Made by a program: the position numbers and the translations under genes
The notes under the pieces: generated by a model
The model's input: only the letters and a program-made list of their open reading frames with translations
The model's database searches: none
Told to the model about the DNA's origin: nothing
From: Prorocentrum cordatum
Lineage: Eukaryota
Assembly: GCA_963575745.1 (NCBI GenBank)
Contig: CAUYUJ010000247.1
Span: 62,001 to 116,373 of the forward strand
Direction of reading: 5' to 3'
Length of the DNA: 54,373 nt
Shown: in pieces, positions 11,010 to 45,640 of the stretch
Numbering within the stretch: the stretch's first letter is position 1
How the letters are laid out: every line of letters begins with the position of its first letter

Positions 11010-12625
<1,616 letters not shown>

Positions 12626-19779: not shown

Positions 19780-21850
<2,071 letters not shown>

Positions 21851-22179: not shown

Positions 22180-22217
<38 letters not shown>

Positions 22218-22582
22218 GAGGAGGAGGAGGAGGTGAGGAGGAGGAGGAGGAGCAGGAGGAGGAGGAGGAGAGGAGGAGGAGGAGGAGGAGGAGGAGGAGG
22301 AGAGGAGAGGAGGAGGAGGGGAGGAGGAGGAGGAGAGGAGGAGGAGGAGGAGGAGGAGGAGGAGGAGGAGGAGGGAGGAGGAGGAGGAGGAGGAGAGGAG
22401 GAGGAGGAGGAGGAGGTGCAGGAGGAGCAGGAGGAGCAGGAGGAGCAGGAAGAGGGAGGAGGAGGAGGAGGAGGAGGCGGATGAGGAGGAGGAGGAGGAC
22501 CAGGAGGAGGATGAGGATGAGGATGAGGAGGAGGAAGAGGAGGAGGAGGAGGAGGAGGAGGAGGAGGAGGAGGAGGAGGAGA

Positions 22583-22602
22583 TCCGTAGCCATTGGCTCA
22601 AG
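22583..22602 (+). other. Relict dinoflagellate spliced leader
   Basis: TCCGTAGCCATTGGCTCAAG equals canonical DCCGTAGCCATTTTGGCTCAAG minus two T; a second SL-end-like TTTGGGCTCAAG lies at 22634-22645. Confidence 0.85.
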
Positions 22603-22681
22603 CCGTTGCCTGGGGCCTTCGCCTTCCCTGGGGTTTGGGCTCAAGGTGGTGCAGGACCTGAGCCGAGACCGTATTCATAAT

Positions 22682-23790
22682 ATGGCACCCACTGCTTACA
22701 CGCAGTGGAATGGCAATCAATCTACTTGGCGCTGTCAGGGGTGTGGATGTGCGAAGAACCTGTTATCGGTGGCCCACTGCAAACACTGGCAAGCACTGGG
22801 AGACGGGAGATCTCAAGAAGAAAGGGAAAAGGAAATGATAAGGACCACCAAGGCAATGCGCTTGATGCTCCTCCTGGCCTGGGTGGCGTTGCTATGGGGG
22901 CACCACTATCCGTCGGGCTGCAGGGAGGAAAGGATCCAGTACCAGACTTGGACATCAACGAGGTTAAGATACTCTTCAGCTTGGCCGAGAAATCGAAGAA
23001 CAATGATCTTGCACAATATTACCAACATGTCCTGCTCATCAAGGACAGATCGGAGATGGTCCCACAGGTCCGCGCAGACCAGAGCCATCGCCTCATCCAG
23101 AGCCTCGAGGCGGACTTGCTCAAGCAGACGGCCGTCTTGGAGGAGCTGCACCAGAAGGTTGAGGAGCAGGGCAAACTTGTCCAAGAGACCCTCGGCAACC
23201 TGGGCAAGCAAGAGGAGATATATACGGAGGCAATCATTGAGCTGCACGGCGCAGTGGCCAAACCGCAGGAGAAGGCCAAACCAGTCTTGTACCCCGAGGA
23301 CATCCTCAATGGCAATGAGTACTGGGAGCTGTCCTGTGGTGAAGGAATATTTCGGACTCAAGGATTACATTGGCATCTCGGAACCAGACTTCAAAGAAGC
23401 TCGTGAAAGGGAGGCCCGCCTTAAGACCCAGTTTGGTGACCTCGCAGAGGAGCTCTTTGGGAATGTCAATCAAAAAGCAGAAGAGTGCCAGCGAGAGCAA
23501 GAGGCCCTCAAGGCCCGACTGGCTGGGAAGAAGCGACGCACTAGGGAAAAACTGGCGCTGATCAAGGGCAGCAAGAGGGCGCGGAAGCTCCCGCAGGAGG
23601 TACGGCAACAGCAAGTTCGGCACCAACGGCATCGGGAGATGGATGTGCCGGTGCAGGAGCAGGCAAGGGCCAGCAAGGCTCGGCGCTGCGGCACAAGGCG
23701 GCCACACTCTTGGCCAATGGCGCGGGCAAGGGGGCCAACGACCAGAAAGGTAAGGCCAGCGGCGACGCAGAGGCGAAGTCGCATTCCTAG
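22682..23790 (+). pseudogene. LINE ORF1 (zinc-finger-like N-terminus, coiled-coil-like core), frameshifted
   Basis: MAPTAYTQW..WRCQGCGCAKN..HCKH; heptad-like LIQSLEADLLKQTAVLEELHQKVEEQGKLVQE; KARLAGKKRR; ends ..GKASGDAEAKSHS* at 23790. Confidence 0.7.
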
Positions 23791-26700
23791 CCCAGCTGGA
23801 CGACGTGCTCACGGCGGACCTGCTGCTACATGGAGGATCGTCACTGCCAATGCCTCGGGTTGGAGTGGGGCGATGCATCTATTGACGGATGATTGCATTC
23901 ATGGGGCGCATGCTGCGTGTTTACAGGAATGCAAAGTTTTGAAGGCGAGTGTTGCTCAGAAGGAGTCGATGATGACCAGTGAAGGCTGGAAGCTTAGGCC
24001 CTCTGGCGCAGCTAGGACTCCTCAAGATGGTGTCTCAGCAGGTGCGGGTGTAGTCGTCCAGCATCATGTTGGAGTAGGTGAAGCTGTTGAGCATCACAGG
24101 CACGTATTGCACTCTCGCAGCTCTACTGTCTGGGTCAATGTGTGTGTGTGTGTGTGAGAGAGAGGTGGTTTCTACTGATTCGCATGTATTTTCCTGATGG
24201 AGAAGGAGTCGAGGGGTTCAAAGGGAGGCAGATGTTGAACCATGTGGGTGGATTCTTGTTTGCGTCTCAGAAGCCCGTCGTCATCGCAGCTGATTTCAAC
24301 TCGACTCCGAGCGAAGTCCAGAAGGTTTCGATTTTTTACGAAACTCATGGGAGTGGTCGTATATGGCAATGAACCGCTCGCAGAGTCGGGAATAACTGGA
24401 GGGAGTTTGATTTTTTCGTGGTATCGCACGATCTCTTGGGGTCTGCACGAAGCTGCAGGCGCATCCAGGACCCGGAGAACAAAACCCACTACCCTGTAGA
24501 GCTTGTCTTGGGGGCTCAGGCTCATCAGCAGGTTAAGCGGGTCCTGAAGCTCCCGGAGCCTTTCCCCAAGGAGGTACCCGGTGAAGCTGAAGTAGGGCCC
24601 CGACTTCCACCATGGAATTTGAGTTTTATCGTCCAGGCTTCAGGACTGCGACTCGTGGCCGACGGTCACGGAGTTTAACGTGATATATTCAGATTTGTGC
24701 AGCATGATGGAGCTCGAGCTCTGTGACGTGCTAGGCAGCAAGGAAGCAGATCGAGCCCCGCACATCGGCAGAGGCGCTGGATGCCGCATCGTTTCGCAGC
24801 GAGTTTTGCAGTGCGTCGAGGGCCCGCGCCCAAGGTGCACGATAGCCTCTAGAGCCCTTCGCAAGATGGCCGTCTGGTTGGAGGAGCTGAGGTTTCTGAG
24901 GAGGAAGGGTCCTCGATGGGGCTCTCGTGGGGTCCAGGCCGTCGTCGGTAAGATATGCAGTGCCCAGCCTCATATTGCCTTTGCTCCAGGGTGGCAGGTT
25001 TTTTCATTCATGAATAGTTTTAGGCGAGGACGTGGACCTCGACGACTTGGTCGAGCTCGGGCGCCAGGTCCAGGGGCTTGCAGCGGTTGTCGAATCCTGT
25101 GCGACTAGGGTTAGGACTAGAGTTTGGAGGCAGTGGGTGCAGGACTCTATCAGTAAAGGAGGAGGTGCAGTATATCAGTATACTAAGAAACCTTTAGGTT
25201 GGGCCCCAGATCCCAATTGGCTTCGAGGGGGGCCCGCTGGGCAAGTTGGCATGACAGAGGCCTCGCTCGAAGAATGGGAGAGTATCTGGCACGAAGGAGA
25301 ACCATCCCTTCTAACTGCTGAGCAATTAGGTCTGCCTCTAGGCCCGCCCCCCCCCCCCCCCCCAGTGCCCGCGGCAGACCAAGTGAGGGGAGCCCTTGGG
25401 AAGTTCAAGGAGAACACGGCGGTTGGCATCGACGGGCGGGGCCCGACCTCGCTCGAGCTCTTGAGCGGCGACGCGCTCGCAGCGTATGGCCAGTTTCTTT
25501 CGCGTGGAGTCGCGCCTCCTGATTCCGGGGCAGCGCGACCATGCGCCCTTGGCCTTTCTGAAGAAATCGGATGGAGGATATCGGCCACTTGGGGTACTTG
25601 CAACAGCAATCCGTGTCTTAGGTAAGGTTAGACGGCAAGGTCCAAGCGAATGGGAAGCTGAGCGCCATCTAGATTGCGTCTCCGGGGCCAAGGGAAAATG
25701 CCATGAGAGAGCGGTGCGGCAACGAGCAGCAGTGGGAGAAACATCGCGAGCAATAGGAACGTCGTCTGCATCAGCTCTCGTGGACGTGGGAAAGTGCTAC
25801 GAAAAGCTTCCGCACGACGTTCAATGGCATGCGTGTGTTAAGCGCAACTTTGACCTTCGCCGCGCCCGCTTGCTTTTGAAGGTCTACGGTGGGCCAAGGT
25901 GTGTGAATATTAAAGAAGTAGTTTCGGATATAGTTCGCATCGCGCGTTCAATCGTAGCTGGGTGTACGTTTGCAACGACGTTGCTGAGAGTGGTGTTGCA
26001 AGACTCTGTGGAAGTACTGAGAACTAGAACTCGGTGGGCCTCTTTGGGGCTTGCTGTGCTGGTTGACGACCTTGCGATTGAAGCCATGGGTTCCATGAGG
26101 CATGTTGAATGCGCACTCTCGGCAGCAGTGCCTCAGTGATGTTCCAGGCTGGAGGCCATGGGCACGGTCTCGCGGAAGAATTGCCAGCTCGTCGCCTCCT
26201 GCCGCCAGCTGGCCGCCAATCTCCAGAGAGCGCTGGCCAAGTGCAGTTTCAAGGCCTATGGCTCGGTCAAGAACTTAGGTCGCGACTTCGGCCGGCAGGT
26301 GGGGAAGAAGAAATTTGTCCTTCGGAGGCGTGTCTTGGGAGTTCGGAGGCGAGCTAACCGTTTCAGGTCTTTGAAGCATCATGAGAAAGGACTCGCCAGA
26401 GTCTTTCGGGGGGGTGGCATCGTGGCTGCGACGTATGGGGTGGGGGTCTTCGGAATGAACGATTCTGGGCTTTCGGATCTCCGAGCTGTTGCCGGCTACG
26501 CGATGTTCGGGAAAGCGAAGGGGAGGTCTCGGGCTGTGCAATATCTCCTCACCGACCCCCCCCCCATCTCGACTCCTCCTACCTCATCGACGCCCTCCCG
26601 CTCATCACGTGGCTGCAGGCGTTGCACTAGCAGTGGATCGCAGATAGCCTCGTGAAGACATTTCCTTTTAGCGGCGGTGGCATCAGCTCATCTTGGATGG

Positions 26701-28296
26701 GCATCGGTCACGGGGCCAGCAGGTGCAGTAGTGCAAACGCTCGGAAGGCTCGGCTGGACGGTGATTGATTGCGCACACTGGAGGGGCCCTCAGGGCCTGC
26801 ACGTGGACCTCACCAACATGGGGGCTCGCGCGCTCAAAGCACTGGCACACCGCGCGATGCGGCACAAGCAAGAACGACAAGCAGCGACAGACTTGCGATG
26901 GGACAACACCCCGCACTTCGAACCTGTTCTGGACAAGCTGCGCAGGGTGAGAGGGCGGGGGGAGAACATCCAGGCCGATTTAGTGATGGCACATTGTTCT
27001 GGTGGGCTCTGGACTCAAGCGAAGCTGTTCACGGAGAGGTATGAGCTGGAACCAACGTGCCTTCGGTGCCGCCAGGCGCCAGGAACGATCGGACACAGAT
27101 TACATGCTTGTGATGGACTCGCTGCATGGCGGCGAGACCGAGGATTTCAAGGGCTGCGCTCCATCTATCATGAGGCTGGAAATTGTCCACTCGTGGAGCG
27201 TGGAATTACTTCTAGCAGGATATGGGTTTCCGCTTCCCCTCCAGGGCCCAGAAGCAGGTTATGTTTGGAGGCCAGAATGTTCAGGACACCTTGGGGTCGA
27301 AACTTTTGTCGATGGCTCTGGGCTTGACCCGGTGGTTGACTGGAGGGCGCGTTCAGGATGGGCATCAATTTTCTTGGCTCCTGGACCCAGGGGGTAGCGT
27401 CAGCTGCTGCGTCCGGGCCTGTTCCTGGGCCAGTTCAGTCGGCAGGTGTGGCAGATCACTGCGCGCTCTACATGTGTTTGTGCCTCATGGGCACGTCGGC
27501 CACGGTGGTAACTGACCGCTACAACTTGGTCAAGGGCCTGGACAAAGGGTCTGAAATCATGTGTGACCCAGCCCAATCCTATCTCCAGATCTGGAAGCTG
27601 ATTTTGTGGAGGCTGGAGGATATCGGTCGTGAAAACGTGGAGGCCGTCTTGATGCCGTCGCATAAGACTCGGGCGTGGCTCAGAAATAAATGGTATCCAG
27701 ATCGGCGGTTCCCTTGCAACTCGATAGCTGATAAGTATGCCAAGATAGGTGCTATGCAACAGCCCAGGATTTCACATCTTCAGGACCGCTTGAGGAGTGC
27801 TGATGAGTACGCGAGGCAGTTCACTCGTCTACTGGGTGGTGCACTGTATCAACTGAGCCGTGCAGGTTTCCCAGACGTTTCGCAAATTCGCAAGCCACAA
27901 ATCGAGCCCCCCATGAAAGTTGGAGGTTGTCTCGTGTGTACTAGTAGGCTCGTGAAACATGATAATGGGCACCATGTCCATCTGGTAGGGGACCTTTGGG
28001 GCTGTAGGACTTGTGGGTTATCGTCTAGCCGTCGGAACAGGATAACTTGCGAGCCGTGCCCAGGGGTGCCCAAGATTGTAAGTAGGTCTCACGCACCCCA
28101 CAAATTGTGGGTGGCGGGCGAGACGTGCTACTGCAACAAGTGCAGCGCGTACGCGACAGGCCAGGCCAAAGGACTGGCCGCCCGCTGCCCGCCGTCAGGA
28201 CCTGGGGAATGGGGTAGGAGGGCTCTCAAGCAACTCGAAGCAGGGAAGATTCCGACGACCAAGGAGTTTGTTGGTAGACCGTTCCCTGTGCACTAG
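23717..28296 (+). pseudogene. LINE ORF2: AP endonuclease, reverse transcriptase, zinc finger, RNase H, C-terminal Cys/His region; many frameshifts
   Basis: APE: IVTANASGW, LQE, SAG, ADFN, THYPV. RT: AVGIDG, KKSDGGYRPLG, VDVGKCYE, SIVAGC, LVDD, KNLG. CLRC..GTIGHRLHAC. RNase H: FVDGS, PGPVQS, VTD, PSH, NSIADKYAKIGA. Confidence 0.9.
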
Positions 28297-28361
28297 CCCC
28301 TCCCAGGATACATATCCCTGACTAGGCTTTCTTGCGGTTCGCTGCGGGATCGACCTTTCCG

Positions 28362-28410
28362 AGGCTCCAGGCTCCAGGCTCCAGGCTCCAGGCTCCAGGC
28401 TCCAGGCTCC
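28362..28410 (+). repeat. (AGGCTCC)7 LINE 3' tail
   Basis: Seven perfect heptamers 65 nt after the ORF2 stop, directly before (GAG)n. Confidence 0.85.
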
Positions 28411-28544
28411 AGAGGAGGACGAGGAGGAGGGGGAGGAGGAGGAGGAGGAGGAGGAGGAGGAGGAGGAGAGAGGAGGAGGAGGAGGAGGAGGAGGAGGAGG
28501 AGGAGGAGGAGGGGAGGAGGGGAGGAGGAGGAGGGGGAGGAGGA

Positions 28545-28575
<31 letters not shown>

Positions 28576-28723
28576 GAGGAGGAGGAGGAGGCGGAGGAGG
28601 AGGAGGAGGAGGAGGAGGAGGAGGGGAGGAGGAGGAGGAGGAGGAGGAGGAGGAGGAGGAGGAGGAGGAGGAGGAGGAGGAGGAGGAGGAGGGAGGAGGG
28701 AGGAGGCTGGCGCTACCCGAGAG

Positions 28724-30325: not shown

Positions 30326-30700
30326 TTCCCGCGTCCATCAGGAGCGCGGGTGACGGTCATGGATCCCGGAAGAGGGCCGCGGGCCGGAGGAGGACAGGAA
30401 AGGCAAGACCGCGAGGGGAACTGAGGAGGGCGACCAGGAGGGGAACGGGAGGACGGGGAGTCGTCGTCGTAGTATTCGGCGTCCTCCTAGTCGTAGTCGT
30501 CGTCGTCGACGTCGTCGACGTCGTCGTCGTCGTTGTGTTATTGTCGTGGTGGTGGTCGTCGTCATTGTTTTAGCCGTTGTCGTCGTCGTCGTCGCCGTCT
30601 TCGTCGTCGTCGTCGTACTCGCCGTTGTCGCTGTCGTCGTCGTCCTCCTGGTCGCCGTCGTTGCCGTCGTCCTCGTCGTGGTCGTTGTCGTCGTAGTGGT

Positions 30701-32237
30701 CCCGCCCGTCAGGGTCCGCCCGCCCGACCCGACCCGCCCGTTAGCGTTCGCGCGTGCTGAGTCGAGCGCGCCCCACACTTCAGTGCCCCGCCCGCCCGAC
30801 CCGACTCGCGTGATAGGGTCCGCCCGACCCGACCCGACCCGTCCCGCCCGTTAGGGTCCGCCCGCCCGACCAGACCCGCCCGTTAGGGTTCACGCGTGCC
30901 CACTCGAGCGCACCCCACACTTTAGTGTCCCGCCCGCCAGACCCGTCCCGCCCGTTAGGGTCCGCCCAACCCGACCCGACCCATCCCGCCCGTCAGGGTC
31001 CGCCCGACCTGCCTGTTGGAGTTCACGTGTGCTCGCTCTGGCGTGCCCCACACTTCAGTGCCCCGCCCGCCCGACCCGACCCAAGTGTTAGGGTCCGCCC
31101 GACCCCACCCGACCCGTCCCGCCCGCTAGGGTCCGCACGCCAGACCAGACCCGCCCGTTAGGGATCACGCGTGCCCACTCGAGCGCGCCCCACACTTTGG
31201 TGTCCCGCTCGCTTGACTTGATTCGCCCCTTAGGGTCCGCCCGACCCGACCCGACCCGCCCGTCAGGGTCCGCCTGCCCGACCGGACACGAGCGTTAGGG
31301 TTCCCGCGTGCCCACTCGATCGCGCCCGCACATAGTAGTGTCCCGCCCGCCCGACCCGACCCGCCCGCTAGGGTTTGCTCGACCCGACCCGACCCGCCCG
31401 TTATAGGGTCCGCCCGCCCGCCCGACCCGACCCGCCCGTTAGGGTCCGCCCGCCCGACCCAACCCGCCCGTTAGGGTTCACGCGTGCCCATTCGAGCGTG
31501 CCCCCACACTTTCGTGTCCCGCCCGCCCGACTCGACCCGCCCGCTAGGGTTTGCTCGACCCGACCCGACCCGCCCCGCCCGTTAGGGTCCGCCCGCCCGA
31601 CCCGACCCGCCCGTTAGGGTTCACGCGTGCTCGTTCCGGCGCGCCCCACACTTTAGTGTCCCGCTCCCGCCCGACCCGACCCGCCCGTTAGGGTCCGCCC
31701 GACCCGACCCGACCGGACCCGACCCGCCCGTTGAAAGTTCACGCGTGCTCGTTCCGGCGCGCCCCACACTTTAGTGTCCCGCCCGCCCGACCCGACCCGC
31801 CCGTCAGGCTCCGTCTGACCCGACCCGTCCCGTCCCGCCCGTTAGGGTCCGCCCGACCGACCCGACCCGCCGTTGAAGTTCACGCGTGCTCGTTCCGGCG
31901 CGCCCCACACTTTAGTGTCCCGCCCGCCCGACCCGACCCGCCCGTTAGGTCCGCCCGACCCGACCCGACCGTCCCGCGTTAGGGTCCGCCTGCCCCACCC
32001 GACCCGCCCGTTAGGGATTACGCGTGTCGCTCGGGCGTGACCCACACTTTAGTGCCCCCGCCCGCCCGACCCGACCCGCCCGTTAGTGTCCGCGCGGCCC
32101 GACCCGACCCGTCCCGCCCGTTCGGGTCCGCTCGCCCGACCAGACCCGCCCGTTAGGGTTCACGCGTGGGCCCACGCGTGCTCAATCGAGCGCGCACCCA
32201 TTTTTTAGTGTTCCGCCCGCCCCGACCCGCCCGTTAT
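30701..32237 (+). repeat. ~140-bp higher-order satellite (about 11 units) built from TTAGGG-containing sub-repeats
   Basis: CACGCGTG-like marker at ~30750, 30891, 31024, 31166, 31303, 31479, 31622, 31740, 31881, 32019, 32161; sub-repeat GTTAGGGTCCGCCCGACCCGACCCGCCC. Confidence 0.9.
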
Positions 32238-33059: not shown

Positions 33060-34900
<1,841 letters not shown>

Positions 34901-35519: not shown

Positions 35520-36050
35520 TCCAAGACGGCCCGTGCAGGCAACTAACAACACCAAGATGGCCCAAGATGGCTCGAAGACAGCCCAAGATGGCACCAAGGC
35601 TGCCAAATATTGCTTCAAGACGGCCCAAGATGCCTCCAAGAGGGCCCAGAGGGCCATTAGAGGACCTCCAACAGGGTCCGAAGAAGTCAAAATCGTTGAG
35701 CTCCCTTGGGTTTTCGAATGGTTGTTGCATTCTCGCCTTTCCGGGCTTACTTAAGCCCAAGACGGCTCAAGAGAACTCCACAATGGCCCTCGAGGCATCC
35801 AAGACGGCCCTAAAACGACCTAAGAGGGCCTCCCGTGGAACCCAAGACTGCCTTAGAAAGTCCTTCAACACGGCGCCAAGACGGCCCTACGAATGCCCCC
35901 CTCCCACACGCCCACAGTACGGCCAAGAGGGCCCCAAGACGGCCCAAGAGGGCCCCAAGCCAGCGTAAGAGGGCCCCAAAATGGCCCAAGAGTGCCCCAA
36001 GGGCCCCCAAAGACTGCCTCACAGGAGGGCAGGACAGCCCCAATACGACC
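35520..36050 (+). repeat. Degenerate 10-11-bp (GGCCCAAGA..)n repeat; similar short patches near 9110-9230, 38670-38810 and 45985-46070
   Basis: Direct inspection. Confidence 0.75.
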
Positions 36051-44719: not shown

Positions 44720-45640
44720 CGGTGAAAATGCGTGCGCGGATGCGAGAAGGGGGGGGAGGGGAGGGGGGGGGCAACATGCGCCTGGCGCGTGCGGGTGGGG
44801 CACGTATTTTCTAGGCAGGGCTCCGGCCCCTGGTTCTTTTTCCGTCTGCGGGCTCAAGCCCTTCCACCAGAAGTGTGTCGAGCAGCAGGCGTCGGAATGG
44901 GACAAGTGAAAACACGTGTTCGGAGGGGCTGTCTCCAACATGAGTCTCACGCACGCGTGCGTTCGGCATGTGTGTTTCACATGTTTCTGGCTACGAAGGG
45001 GCCGCAGGCGAGGGACCCAACTTGGCCCGCCAGATTGTTTACACGGAACTGTACGTGTGCAGAGTGGGGGACCCAACATGCGCCTGCCGCGTGTGCGCGG
45101 GACACGTATTTTCACGTGTCCGCGGTCCCTCCAAAAATACGTGCGCGGAGGGGGCAAGATGCGCCTGGCGCGTGCGCGCAGGGACATGTATTTTCACGTC
45201 GACGTGTCCACGGCCCCCGGGTGGGAACCAAATTGGGGGCGGGGGAGATTCAACATGCGCTTGGCGCGGGCTTGGCGCGTGCGCGCGTGGGGGGAGCCCA
45301 ACATGCGCCTGGCGCGTGAGCGCGGGGCATGTGTTTTCACGTGTCCACGGCCCCCAGGGGGGGGACCCATTTTGGACCCGCCGGAGTCTTTACACGTAAA
45401 CATGCGTTCGCGTATGGGGGAGGGCACCATGTGCCCGGCGCGTGCCGGCAGGTCACGCGTGTTCAGCCCACGGCCCTCAGGGGGGGGCCGAACTCGGGCG
45501 CGTCGGATTCTTTCCGCGGGAGAATGCGTGAGCGGAGGGTGGGGCCAACGTGCGCCTGGCACGTGCGCGCGGGGCACGTGTTTTTTTTGCATGCCCACGG
45601 CCCCCATGGGTGACCCAGCTTGGTCGCGGTGGATTCTCCA
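44720..45640 (+). repeat. Degenerate tandem repeat rich in alternating purine-pyrimidine
   Basis: AACATGCGCCTGGCGCGTGCGCGC..TTTTCACGTGTCCACGGCCCC recurs about 7 times. Confidence 0.75.

What the first reader, a model, noticed from the sequence alone, without database searches (positions are those of the whole stretch)
22583..28410. LINE that begins exactly with a spliced leader, in sense orientation inside a host intron
Seen: unique sequence starts with TCCGTAGCCATTGGCTCAAG right after (GAG)n, only about 80 nt before the ORF1 ATG, leaving little room for an internal promoter. Known: dinoflagellate mRNAs receive this SL by trans-splicing, and retrocopies keep relict SLs whose AG can be reused as acceptor. 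Inferred: the element's RNA was trans-spliced, fully reverse transcribed and inserted. Such LINEs could be promoter-less, being released and capped from host read-through pre-mRNA by trans-splicing onto their own relict SL, and could thereby cut the host transcript.
Basis: partly seen in the sequence, partly recalled or inferred. Interest (0 to 1): 0.8.

Follow-up and report, generated by a model that had tools for sequence, protein, structure and literature searches.

The report
LINE copy starting with spliced leader
A decayed jumping gene (LINE) in this dinoflagellate-type DNA begins with the short leader that the cell splices onto its messenger RNAs, which shows that it was copied back from a finished, trans-spliced message and so arrived without any upstream promoter.

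Summary
The sequence observation holds. Window 22583-28412 is one non-LTR retrotransposon with RanBP2-like zinc finger/coiled coil, APE, RT, RNase H and a Cys-rich tail. It splits a (GAG)n array and ends in (AGGCTCC)x7.

Its first 20 bases are the 22-nt dinoflagellate spliced leader (SL) minus two T. This is the only match within 2 edits in the window, against 0 in 171 random sequences. The ATG lies 79 nt downstream. A second SL-like piece (11/12) lies at 22634-22645.

The copy is dead, with at least 3 frame changes and 4 in-frame stops.

An independent, intact 8.9-kb LINE of the same architecture (L191, a contig in a bacterial MAG) begins with a perfect 21-nt SL directly after an (AG)n array. 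So SL-capped LINE mRNA is a template for full-length retrotransposition in two distant lineages.

Not shown:
- The "host intron" claim: 0 of 147 flanking ORFs reach a Pfam cut-off.
- Sense-orientation bias.
- Any transcript.
- The promoter-less, read-through-and-resplice life cycle.

I found no paper describing SL-initiated LINEs. The closest hint is a GO enrichment in Song 2017. I rate it a new variant of a known kind, of moderate interest.

The parts
22217..22581 (+). upstream half of the (GAG)n/(GGA)n microsatellite that the element split (target site)
   Evidence: TRF: period 3, 123 copies, 86% matches; sequence read
22583..22602 (+). relict dinoflagellate spliced leader, 20 of 22 nt (two T of the T4 run missing); first base of the element
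   Evidence: one match within 2 edits in the window, 0 in 171 random sequences; SL consensus as printed in 10.1101/783902 and PMC5585692
22603..22645 (+). possible older SL relict: CCGTTGCC (7/8 of CCGTAGCC) abutting the first SL, and TTTGGGCTCAAG (11/12 of TTTTGGCTCAAG) at 22634-22645
   Evidence: the 12-mer match is reached by 0 of 685 other 79-nt stretches of the window and by 1% of shuffles; CCGTTGCC alone is not significant (20% of shuffles)
22682..22795 (+). start of ORF1 (ATG 22682, frame 2) with a RanBP2-like zinc finger, W-x-C-x2-C...N...C-x2-(W), at about 22727-22789
   Evidence: translation; local match to the zinc finger of L191 ORF1 (E 0.002), which itself hits Pfam Zn_ribbon_RanBP above cut-off; Pfam gives nothing for the window piece itself
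22798..23406 (+). coiled-coil part of ORF1, now in frame 1 (apparent frameshift after the zinc finger)
   Evidence: weak coiled-coil families only; 27% identity over 187 aa to L191 ORF1, E 5e-4
23837..24600 (+). APE-type endonuclease domain, split between frame 2 (to 24157) and frame 1 (24175-24600)
   Evidence: tblastn of P0153 residues 107-247 and P0004 residues 157-276; weak N-terminal match E 0.013; translation
25041..26655 (+). reverse transcriptase domain (frame 3 to about 25505, then frame 1), in-frame stops at 26137 and 26653
   Evidence: Pfam RVT_1 4.6e-5, below cut-off; tblastn; phmmer E 5.9e-76 to P0003 and 1894 relatives; stops
26656..27339 (+). post-RT region with a Cys/His motif (zf-RVT-like, weak); in-frame stops at 27325 and 27337
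27421..27874 (+). RNase H-like domain
   Evidence: 25% identity to the Pfam-confirmed RNase H region of L191 ORF2, E 0.001; covered by the P0153/P0004 alignments
27875..28296 (+). Cys-rich C-terminal region and stop codon (28294-28296)
   Evidence: alignment to P0153 up to residue 1479
28362..28412 (+). 3' tail of the element, (AGGCTCC) x 7.3, no poly(A)
   Evidence: TRF, 100% matches; sequence
28412..28706 (+). downstream half of the split (GAG)n microsatellite
   Evidence: TRF: period 3, 98 copies, 92% matches

Best explanation
Window 22583-28412 is a dead, full-length copy of an APE-RT-RNase H LINE. It was made by target-primed reverse transcription of a mature, SL-trans-spliced LINE mRNA into a (GAG)n microsatellite.

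Shown:
- The LINE identity.
- The SL relict at the exact 5' junction.
- The split microsatellite.
- The decay of the reading frames.
- A second, intact LINE elsewhere (L191) with the same arrangement.

Inferred:
- In these organisms the translated and reverse-transcribed LINE RNA carries the SL, as other nuclear mRNAs do. Every full-length daughter therefore starts with an SL relict and inherits nothing from upstream of the acceptor site.
- Because the lineage persisted, SL-initiated copies must be re-expressed. The likeliest route is transcription entering from flanking DNA, followed by a new trans-splice at an AG in or next to the relict (terminal AG 22602, internal AG 22589, or an upstream AG).
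- Use of the terminal AG would renew the SL without leaving a trace. Use of an upstream AG would give the SL-SL arrangement suggested at 22583-22645.
- The loss of two T in the relict is a later slip in the T run or a reverse-transcription slip.
For: 1. The SL match is unique: one hit within 2 edits, 0 in 171 random sequences. The exact 19-mer occurs once against 0 in 100 shuffles.
2. It lies at the first base after (GAG)n, and (GAG)n resumes after the tail.
3. The element is a LINE. phmmer gives E 5.9e-76 to P0003 and 1894 relatives. tblastn maps APE, RT and RNase H onto 24175-28299. The family profile hits LINE-1 ORF2p at E 1.2e-13 and exonuclease III.
4. L191 (9096 nt) reads: (AGAGAGAC)n/(AG)n 1-116, exact 21-nt SL 117-137, ATG 231, ORF1 with Zn_ribbon_RanBP, ORF2 with Exo_endo_phos, RVT_1 and RNase_H all above cut-off, an open frame of 2536 aa, an A6 tail, then (AG)n again.
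5. L191 and the window element are only distantly related: 26% identity in the RT core, E 3e-5. The arrangement is therefore not one recent family's accident.
6. A second SL-like 12-mer lies in the 5' UTR.
7. No ribozyme or other Rfam family is found in the window or in L191, and the 5' UTR has no unusual fold (z -0.18). No alternative 5'-end-defining device is visible.
8. Literature: relict SLs mark retrocopies, and the SL-internal AG is reused as acceptor (passages of PMC3229502, PMC5585692, PMC12014239).
Against: - Only two SL-initiated LINE copies were seen, and L191 was found by searching for the SL, so it says nothing about frequency.
- No copy chosen independently of the SL had its 5' end in reach. 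All 7 further LINE contigs examined lack SL-like sequence and 5 of them are open to a contig end.
- The window relict is not canonical (2 nt short).
- The second relict does not have the usual truncated form CCATTTTGGCTCAAG directly after the SL. Its first part (CCGTTGCC) is not significant on its own.
- No relict is significant in the L191 UTR (13.7% of shuffles), and the two UTRs are not alike.
- Nothing shows that this or any SL-initiated copy is transcribed again.
- A preprint states that functions enriched in DinoSL-relict genes and in RT genes do not overlap in two Symbiodinium genomes (10.1101/783902, passage).
Confidence: 0.8

Rival explanations
1. The first reader's full model is the main mode of propagation. 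The family has no promoter at all. Copies lying in sense orientation in transcribed DNA are carried on host read-through pre-mRNA. They are cut out and capped by trans-splicing at an AG of their own relict SL, and this truncates the host transcript.
For: - SL-initiated copies cannot carry upstream promoter or outron sequence (logic).
- The terminal AG of the relict would regenerate exactly the SL+UTR structure seen in the intact L191.
- The window UTR suggests two rounds of splicing.
- No ribozyme is found.
- Relict-SL AG reuse is documented for retrogenes (passages).
Against: - No host gene, intron or transcription direction could be shown around the element.
- No orientation statistics and no RNA data were obtained.
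- Both copies lie in purine microsatellites, which offer AGs but no obvious polypyrimidine tract.
- The 79-99 nt UTR and the start of ORF1 could still hold an internal promoter.
Confidence: 0.3
2. The relict SL is itself the promoter. The TTT(T/G) motif of the DinoSL acts as a core promoter, as proposed for retrogenes, so SL-initiated LINE copies arrive with a minimal promoter and need no host read-through.
For: - Song et al. 2017 (PMC5585692, passages) report that TTTT/TTTG is preferentially kept in relicts and that the best-kept relicts lie 50-100 bp before the start codon.
- Here the SL relict starts 99 bp before the ATG. The second piece keeps TTTG and starts 48 bp before the ATG.
- L191 keeps TTTT, with the SL starting 114 bp before its ATG.
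Against: - The first relict of the window copy has lost the T4 run (ATTGG).
- A start inside or after the relict leaves almost no outron for the next trans-splice, yet daughters carry a complete SL.
- The promoter role of the motif is a hypothesis in that paper, not an assay.
Confidence: 0.15
3. SL-initiated copies are dead-end by-products. Master copies have their own promoter and outron upstream of the acceptor site and propagate through unspliced RNA. Trans-spliced RNA is only occasionally retrotransposed, like a processed pseudogene.
For: - The window copy is dead.
- Trypanosomatid LINEs, in another SL-using group, have an internal promoter (Pr77) that gives unspliced transcripts (titles and abstract starts of PMC1874656 and PMC3383444 in the listing).
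- SymbioLINE elements are described with conserved 5' UTRs and no mention of an SL ('spliced leader' and 'DinoSL' occur 0 times, and 'trans-splic' once in a general remark, in PMC5890265).
Against: - L191 is SL-initiated and fully open (ORF1 370 aa, ORF2 frame 2536 aa), as expected of a young and possibly competent copy.
- Two distant lineages show the same arrangement.
- The possible tandem relict in the window copy implies that an SL-initiated copy was itself a source.
Confidence: 0.2
4. The SL was joined by template switching of the reverse transcriptase from the LINE RNA to an SL RNA (as in U6/L1 chimeras), or the element is a site-specific inserter into SL RNA genes (SLACS/CZAR type), or the match is chance.
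For: SL RNA is an abundant small RNA. Chimeric LINE insertions with small RNAs are known (abstract start of 10.1101/2025.02.02.635956).
Against: - Only the 22-nt exon part is present. The base after ...CTCAAG is C (window) or T (L191, TCG...), not the GT start of a spliceosomal intron.
- The flanks on both sides are microsatellite, not an SL RNA gene.
- Rfam finds no RNA gene.
- Chance is excluded and by the second case.
Confidence: 0.03

Closest known systems
Dinoflagellate retrogenes with relict spliced leaders ('recycled cDNAs', Slamovits & Keeling 2008; seen here through passages of PMC3229502, PMC5585692 and PMC12014239)
   Same: A DNA-encoded DinoSL lies at the 5' end of a retrocopy, within about 100 nt of the start codon. 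There may be more than one relict. AGs of the relict are candidate acceptors for the next trans-splice.
   Different: The retrocopied RNA is that of the retrotransposon itself, the presumed source of the RT activity, not a host gene. The tail is (AGGCTCC)n or a very short A run. The second relict is not the usual truncated CCATTTTGGCTCAAG directly after the SL.
SymbioLINE / dinoflagellate APE-RT-RNase H LINEs (de Mendoza et al. 2018, PMC5890265, passages)
   Same: The ORF2 architecture is Exo_endo_phos + RVT_1 + RNase_H. There is no poly(A) tail. They are two-ORF LINEs in dinoflagellate genomes.
   Different: ORF1 here is a RanBP2-type zinc finger plus coiled coil, not a DNMT. That paper describes conserved 5' UTRs and TSDs but never uses the terms 'spliced leader' or 'DinoSL' in its main text. 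Direct sequence relationship was not tested because no SymbioLINE sequence was at hand.
Trypanosomatid L1Tc/ingi with Pr77 promoter and HDV-like ribozyme, and R2 with its 5' ribozyme
   Same: These are LINEs living in co-transcribed or polycistronic DNA that need a device to define their own RNA 5' end.
   Different: Those elements use an internal promoter and/or a self-cleaving ribozyme, and L1Tc transcripts are unspliced (titles and abstract starts). R2's ribozyme is recalled, not seen in a call. Here no ribozyme is found, and the 5' end is the SL itself.
SLACS / CZAR / CRE, LINEs specific for SL RNA genes of trypanosomatids (recalled, not from a call)
   Same: A LINE is physically associated with spliced-leader sequence.
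   Different: Those insert into SL RNA genes, so SL gene sequence flanks them. Here the flanks are microsatellite, and the SL is part of the inserted copy.
Human LINE-1 ORF2p, the closest solved structure
   Same: The RT region of the family profile matches LINE-1 ORF2p (8sxt_A, E 1.2e-13). The APE part matches exodeoxyribonuclease III.
   Different: It has an extra RNase H domain (matches RNase H1) and a Cys-rich C-terminus. The protein is only distantly related.

Membership tests
Non-LTR retrotransposon (LINE), APE type with RNase H | Reverse transcriptase domain of the LINE type | tested here: met
   phmmer gives E 5.9e-76 to P0003 and 1894 hits. Relative P0001 carries PF00078 and PF03372. 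The family profile hits LINE-1 ORF2p. Pfam RVT_1 on the window piece alone is below cut-off (23.7 against 29.6 bits).
Non-LTR retrotransposon (LINE), APE type with RNase H | Apurinic-type endonuclease N-terminal to the RT | tested here: met
   tblastn places P0153 residues 107-247 at 24175-24600 (E 2e-16, joint with the next piece). The N-terminal part is only weakly matched (E 0.013). Pfam gives nothing for the broken window pieces.
Non-LTR retrotransposon (LINE), APE type with RNase H | No terminal repeats; 3' end is a simple-repeat or A tail | tested here: met
   Self-blastn of the element against the window gives only the self hit. The tail is (AGGCTCC)x7.3.
Non-LTR retrotransposon (LINE), APE type with RNase H | Target-site duplication | tested here: inconclusive
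   Both flanks are the same (GAG)n repeat, so a duplication cannot be delimited.
Non-LTR retrotransposon (LINE), APE type with RNase H | Open reading frames intact (autonomous copy) | tested here: not met
   The homology changes frame three times, an apparent further shift follows the zinc finger, and there are four in-frame stops. The copy is a relic. L191 is intact.
SL-tagged retrocopy of dinoflagellates | DNA-encoded DinoSL at the 5' end of the copy, upstream of the start codon | tested here: met
   20 of 22 nt at 22583-22602, 79 nt before the ATG. L191 has 21 of 21 nt.
SL-tagged retrocopy of dinoflagellates | Truncated relict (CCATTTTGGCTCAAG) in tandem directly after the SL, marking repeated cycles | tested here: inconclusive
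   No canonical truncated relict is present. Instead there is CCGTTGCC...TTTGGGCTCAAG, and only the 12-mer is significant. Nothing is significant in L191.
SL-tagged retrocopy of dinoflagellates | Parent transcript known and trans-spliced | not testable with these tools
SL-RNA-gene-specific LINE (SLACS/CZAR/CRE type) | Insertion inside an SL RNA gene, with SL gene sequence on the flanks | tested here: not met
   The flanks are (GAG)n on both sides. Rfam finds no RNA gene in the window.
Small-RNA/LINE chimera by template switching (U6/L1 type) | Whole small RNA, including its 3' part, fused to a usually 5'-truncated LINE | tested here: not met
   Only the 22-nt exon part is present, followed by UTR and the ORF1 ATG. 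The LINE is full length.
Ribozyme-released LINE (R2, L1Tc type) | Self-cleaving HDV-like ribozyme at the 5' end | tested here: not met
   0 Rfam families at gathering score in the window and in L191. The 5' UTR fold is no better than shuffles (z -0.18). A divergent ribozyme could escape Rfam.

The most novel reading that the evidence does not exclude
A class of dinoflagellate LINEs has given up its own promoter. Its 5' end is re-created in every generation by trans-splicing at the terminal AG of its own relict spliced leader, out of RNA that enters from flanking DNA. The relict SL works as a portable splice-acceptor 'landing pad' that renews itself without trace and cuts whatever host transcript carries it. 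The elements may in addition aim at purine microsatellites ((GAG)n, (AG)n).
Probability: 0.25. Interest if true: 0.8.

Novelty: new variant of a known kind. Interest (0 to 1): 0.55.

Why it matters
LINEs are assumed to be the source of the reverse transcriptase behind the very large number of SL-tagged retrogenes in dinoflagellates. How these LINEs themselves are expressed is not known.

A LINE whose full-length copies start with the spliced leader shows two things. The SL-capped mRNA is the retrotransposition template. Daughters inherit no upstream control region.

This turns the question 'how does a LINE survive in a genome with almost no gene-specific promoters?' into a countable one: 5' ends, number of relicts, and orientation within transcription units. 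It also gives a contrast to trypanosomatid LINEs, which solve the same problem with an internal promoter and a ribozyme.

The SL relict also gives a clean marker for full-length insertions and for dating them.

If the re-splicing model holds, such insertions are ready-made trans-splice acceptors. They could split host transcription units and create new gene starts.

Tried and rejected
1. Whole genome of the window: none is held. Earlier findings of the scan: nothing by place, words or sequence.
2. Sequencing runs: one DNA holder (0.35 of the sampled words) and two runs of the same study. No RNA holder is listed.
No read or contig evidence on other copies or transcripts was obtained, and I did not resend.
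4. The search for homologous proteins:
   - The RT read-through gave 2 hits.
   - The ORF1 coiled-coil piece gave none of 120 candidates.
   - The SL+UTR+zinc-finger frame gave none of 1 candidate.
   No protein reading through a 5' UTR with an SL was found.
5. None of the 164 proteins then on file has an SL-derived peptide at its N-terminus. The two motif hits, at residues 15 and 832, are internal and unrelated. This is uninformative, since most are ORF2 models.
6. The search for related loci with alignment A1 failed for lack of a conserved stretch. With A2 on metagenome contigs it gave 50 AT-rich contigs with generic RT matches, and 0 of 50 carry an SL. They do not belong to this family and say nothing. 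With A2 on viral contigs it gave no relatives.
7. The window's 19-mer SL variant has 0 matches in viral contigs.
8. LINE search in records that hold SL sites:
   - No match in G002 and G003.
   - Of 15 MAGs, 2 had a match.
   - The 7 contigs fetched carry no SL-like sequence, and 5 are open to a contig end.
   - An ORF1 search found only L191 itself.
   - An SL pattern search with up to 3 mismatches in G001, G004 and G007 found 6 sites, none new next to a LINE.
9. Among the other 117 ORFs that start within 500 nt after an exact SL, none has an RT or endonuclease domain.
10. The UTRs of the window element and of L191 are not significantly alike: the observed score of 14 is below the shuffle mean of 17.7. 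The apparent shared relict in the MAFFT alignment is therefore dropped.
11. The bacterial promoter/terminator scan does not apply to this organism and found nothing.
12. GGCTCAAG at 35764 and 44851: the contexts are not convincing relicts.
Full report
**The observation**

The window reads ...GGAGGAGGAGA TCCGTAGCCATTGGCTCAAG CCGTTGCC... at 22572-22610. The spliced leader of dinoflagellates is DCCGUAGCCAUUUUGGCUCAAG, as printed in passages of 10.1101/783902 and PMC5585692 and in the abstract start of PMC2606063.

The window stretch is that leader with two of the four U/T missing. Without indels, the canonical 21-mer is not found even at 3 mismatches. With indels there is exactly one match in the window on either strand, at 22584-22602, with two deletions. 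There were no matches at up to 2 edits in 171 Markov-1 random sequences of the same length. The exact 19-mer occurs once against 0 in 100 shuffles.

The ATG of the first reading frame is at 22682, 79 nt after the leader. So the sequence observation is right, with the qualification that the leader is 20 of 22 nt.

**What the element is**

(GGA)n runs from 22217 to 22581 and resumes at 28412-28706. Just before it resumes lies a perfect (AGGCTCC)x7.3 array at 28362-28412. The unit 22583-28412 (5830 bp) is therefore an insertion that split one microsatellite. It occurs once in the window.

Its conceptual translation is broken.
- Frame 1 from 25465 to 28296 has four in-frame stops.
- Homology to intact relatives changes frame three times: APE residues 107-247 of P0153 map to 24175-24600 in frame 1, residues 266-333 to frame 2, residues 391-538 to frame 3, and residues 551-1479 to 25549-28299 in frame 1.
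- A further shift appears to follow the N-terminal zinc finger.

A full HMMER pass with the 943-residue read-through (stops as X) found 1894 proteins at E <= 0.001, the best at E 5.9e-76 and 31% identity. The word-index search found only two. One is a 1601-aa protein that the source names as from Prorocentrum cordatum. By my reading of its sequence, it has the same order: zinc finger, coiled coil, APE, RT, RNase H.

A profile of nine relatives matches human LINE-1 ORF2p (E 1.2e-13), an R2 protein, exodeoxyribonuclease III and retroviral RNase H domains among solved structures. The element is thus a decayed APE-RT-RNase H LINE. Its ORF1-like N-terminus carries a RanBP2-like zinc finger and a coiled coil.

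Short proteins 67-78% identical to parts of it exist in ENA and in a EukProt record. Closer relatives are therefore in public data, but their DNA could not be fetched.

**An independent second case**

No genome is held for the window, so I scanned two collections for the exact 21-nt leader.
- IMG/VR gave 119 stretches, 80 of them fetched with flanks.
- The prokaryote genome collection gave 20 stretches.

A tblastn of seven, then of all longer, LINE proteins against the 138 loci hit a single locus, L182. The whole contig (L191, 9096 nt, binned in a bacterial MAG) reads as follows:
- (AGAGAGAC)n/(AG)n at 1-116.
- CCGTAGCCATTTTGGCTCAAG at 117-137.
- ATG at 231.
- ORF1 of 370 aa, with Pfam Zn_ribbon_RanBP above cut-off.
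- An unassigned 686-aa ORF.
- ORF2 with Exo_endo_phos, RVT_1 and RNase_H, all above cut-off, in a frame open for 2536 codons.
- ...GGGTAAAAAA, and then (AG)n again.

The base before CCGTAG is C. It fits the flanking repeat unit rather than the D (A/G/U) of the leader.

This is an intact LINE that begins with the leader at the junction with a split purine microsatellite, exactly as in the window. It is only distantly related to the window element: 26% identity over the RT core (E 3e-5), 25% over RNase H, and 27% over ORF1. The arrangement therefore occurs in two lineages.

L191 was found through its leader. It proves that the arrangement recurs and can be intact, not that it is common. Of the 117 other ORFs that start within 500 nt after an exact leader, none has an RT or endonuclease domain.

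**How it most likely arose**

Only the 22-nt exon part of the leader is present. What follows is UTR and the ORF1 start, not an SL-RNA intron. The flanks are microsatellite, not an SL RNA gene. No Rfam family is found.

That excludes an SL-gene-specific inserter and a template switch onto SL RNA. It leaves the simple reading: the LINE's own mRNA was trans-spliced like other nuclear mRNAs, translated, and reverse transcribed to its very 5' end at a nick in the microsatellite. This is the mechanism accepted for SL-tagged retrogenes (passages), here applied to the retrotransposon itself.

**What follows for its life cycle (inference)**

A daughter that starts with the leader cannot contain anything that lay upstream of the acceptor site in its parent. 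To be trans-spliced again, it must be transcribed from further upstream. The element offers AGs at the end of the relict (22602), inside it (22589) and further on (22645).
- Splicing at the terminal AG would replace the old leader by a new one and leave no trace. This would fit the clean SL+UTR of the intact L191.
- Splicing at an AG just upstream would give leader-leader tandems.

In the window, the 8 nt after the leader are CCGTTGCC (7/8 of CCGTAGCC). At 22634-22645 lies TTTGGGCTCAAG (11/12), a score reached by 0 of 685 other 79-nt stretches and by 1% of shuffles. I read this as moderate evidence for an older leader, hence for at least two cycles. The first part alone is not significant, and the form is not the usual truncated relict.

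The 5' UTR shows no unusual fold and no ribozyme, unlike the trypanosomatid L1Tc (abstract starts) and R2 (recalled, not from a call).

**Rivals**

- Song et al. 2017 propose that the TTT(T/G) of the relict is a core promoter. The window's second piece and L191 keep it, while the first relict lost it.
- SL-initiated copies might be dead-end by-products of masters with their own promoter. The intact L191 and the two lineages speak against this but do not exclude it.

**What is not supported**

I found no host gene. None of the 147 ORFs of 70 aa or more outside the element (low-complexity ones left out; 37 and 110) reaches a Pfam curated cut-off. The surroundings are dominated by microsatellites and tandem arrays (62 TRF rows).

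Short exons would escape this test. 'Inside a host intron, in sense' is therefore unverified rather than refuted.

No SL-independent sample of 5' ends was obtainable: the 7 extra LINE contigs carry no SL-like sequence and 5 are open to a contig end.

**Literature**

Five full-text searches and passages of ten papers gave no description of a LINE that begins with a spliced leader. I read passages, not whole texts, and opened no supplements.

Nearest statements:
- Song et al. 2017 report GO 'RNA-dependent DNA replication' enriched among genes with DinoSL relicts. This suggests that RT genes with relicts were in their lists.
- 10.1101/783902 states that functions of relict-bearing genes and RT genes do not overlap, and calls the two processes independent.
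- de Mendoza et al. 2018 describe APE-RT-RNase H LINEs without a poly(A) tail. 'Spliced leader' and 'DinoSL' occur 0 times in the main text, and 'trans-splic' occurs once, in a general remark.
- A virus-like transcript with a 5' DinoSL is known (passage of PMC10235124).

**Verdict**

The finding is a real and reproducible arrangement, expected from known biology but apparently not described. The bold mechanism remains open. I rate it a new variant of a known kind, interest 0.55.

Noticed in passing
L051-L130 (IMG/VR giant-virus bins, e.g. the bin of L061 = G002, 951 kb in 20 contigs): Dozens of exact 21-nt DinoSL copies lie directly upstream of ORFs (DUF4116 repeat proteins, CCCH and RING fingers, NADAR, an ABC transporter) in contigs binned as giant viruses. 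This is either dinoflagellate nuclear DNA mis-binned, or viral genomes carrying SL-tagged retrocopies. No LINE of this family was found in G002 or G003.
   Followed up: partly
L117 (5319-nt IMG/VR contig), SL at 5299-5319 on the minus strand: The contig ends exactly with the DinoSL, and its first long ORF has a viral RdRP_1 domain (4.5e-7). It looks like the dinoRNAV-type transcript with a 5' leader mentioned in PMC10235124.
   Followed up: partly
L191:1696-3756 and L191:4371-4784: The intact SL-initiated LINE carries an extra 686-aa ORF with no Pfam family between ORF1 and ORF2, followed by a 207-bp unit repeated twice. It is either a third LINE gene or captured host sequence.
   Followed up: partly
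window 22217-22581 / 28412-28706 and L191:1-116 / 9005-9074: Both SL-initiated LINEs sit inside purine microsatellites ((GAG)n and (AG)n), with the purine strand in sense. GGA-type arrays on the plus strand cover roughly 3% of the window (about 1.75 kb by my sum of the TRF rows; perfect runs total 1446 bp). This may reflect target preference, but n = 2.
   Followed up: partly
window 47280-52606, 34030-34894, 11286-12493, 21370-21850: The trinucleotide arrays are very long: (GAT)n of 5.3 kb, (TAG)n of 0.9 kb, (GAT)n of 1.2 kb and (ACT)n of 0.5 kb. TRF returned 62 rows for the 54-kb window, some of them overlapping descriptions of one array.
   Followed up: no
window 30699-32168: A tandem array has 142-bp and 38-bp periodicities, and its units contain CCCGTTAGGGT, a telomere-repeat-like core, in a 70% G+C stretch.
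   Followed up: no
window 44834-44858: CCGTCTGCGGGCTCAAG, on the plus strand after a T run, could be a much-decayed SL relict. It is more than 4 edits from the leader and not significant.
   Followed up: partly
P0009, P0037: The closest protein fragments to the window's RT (67-74% identity) come from a EukProt record that the source names as a Pyramimonas strain, a green alga. The name is not in the taxonomy copy. Either that data set holds foreign sequence, or the family is wider than dinoflagellates.
   Followed up: no
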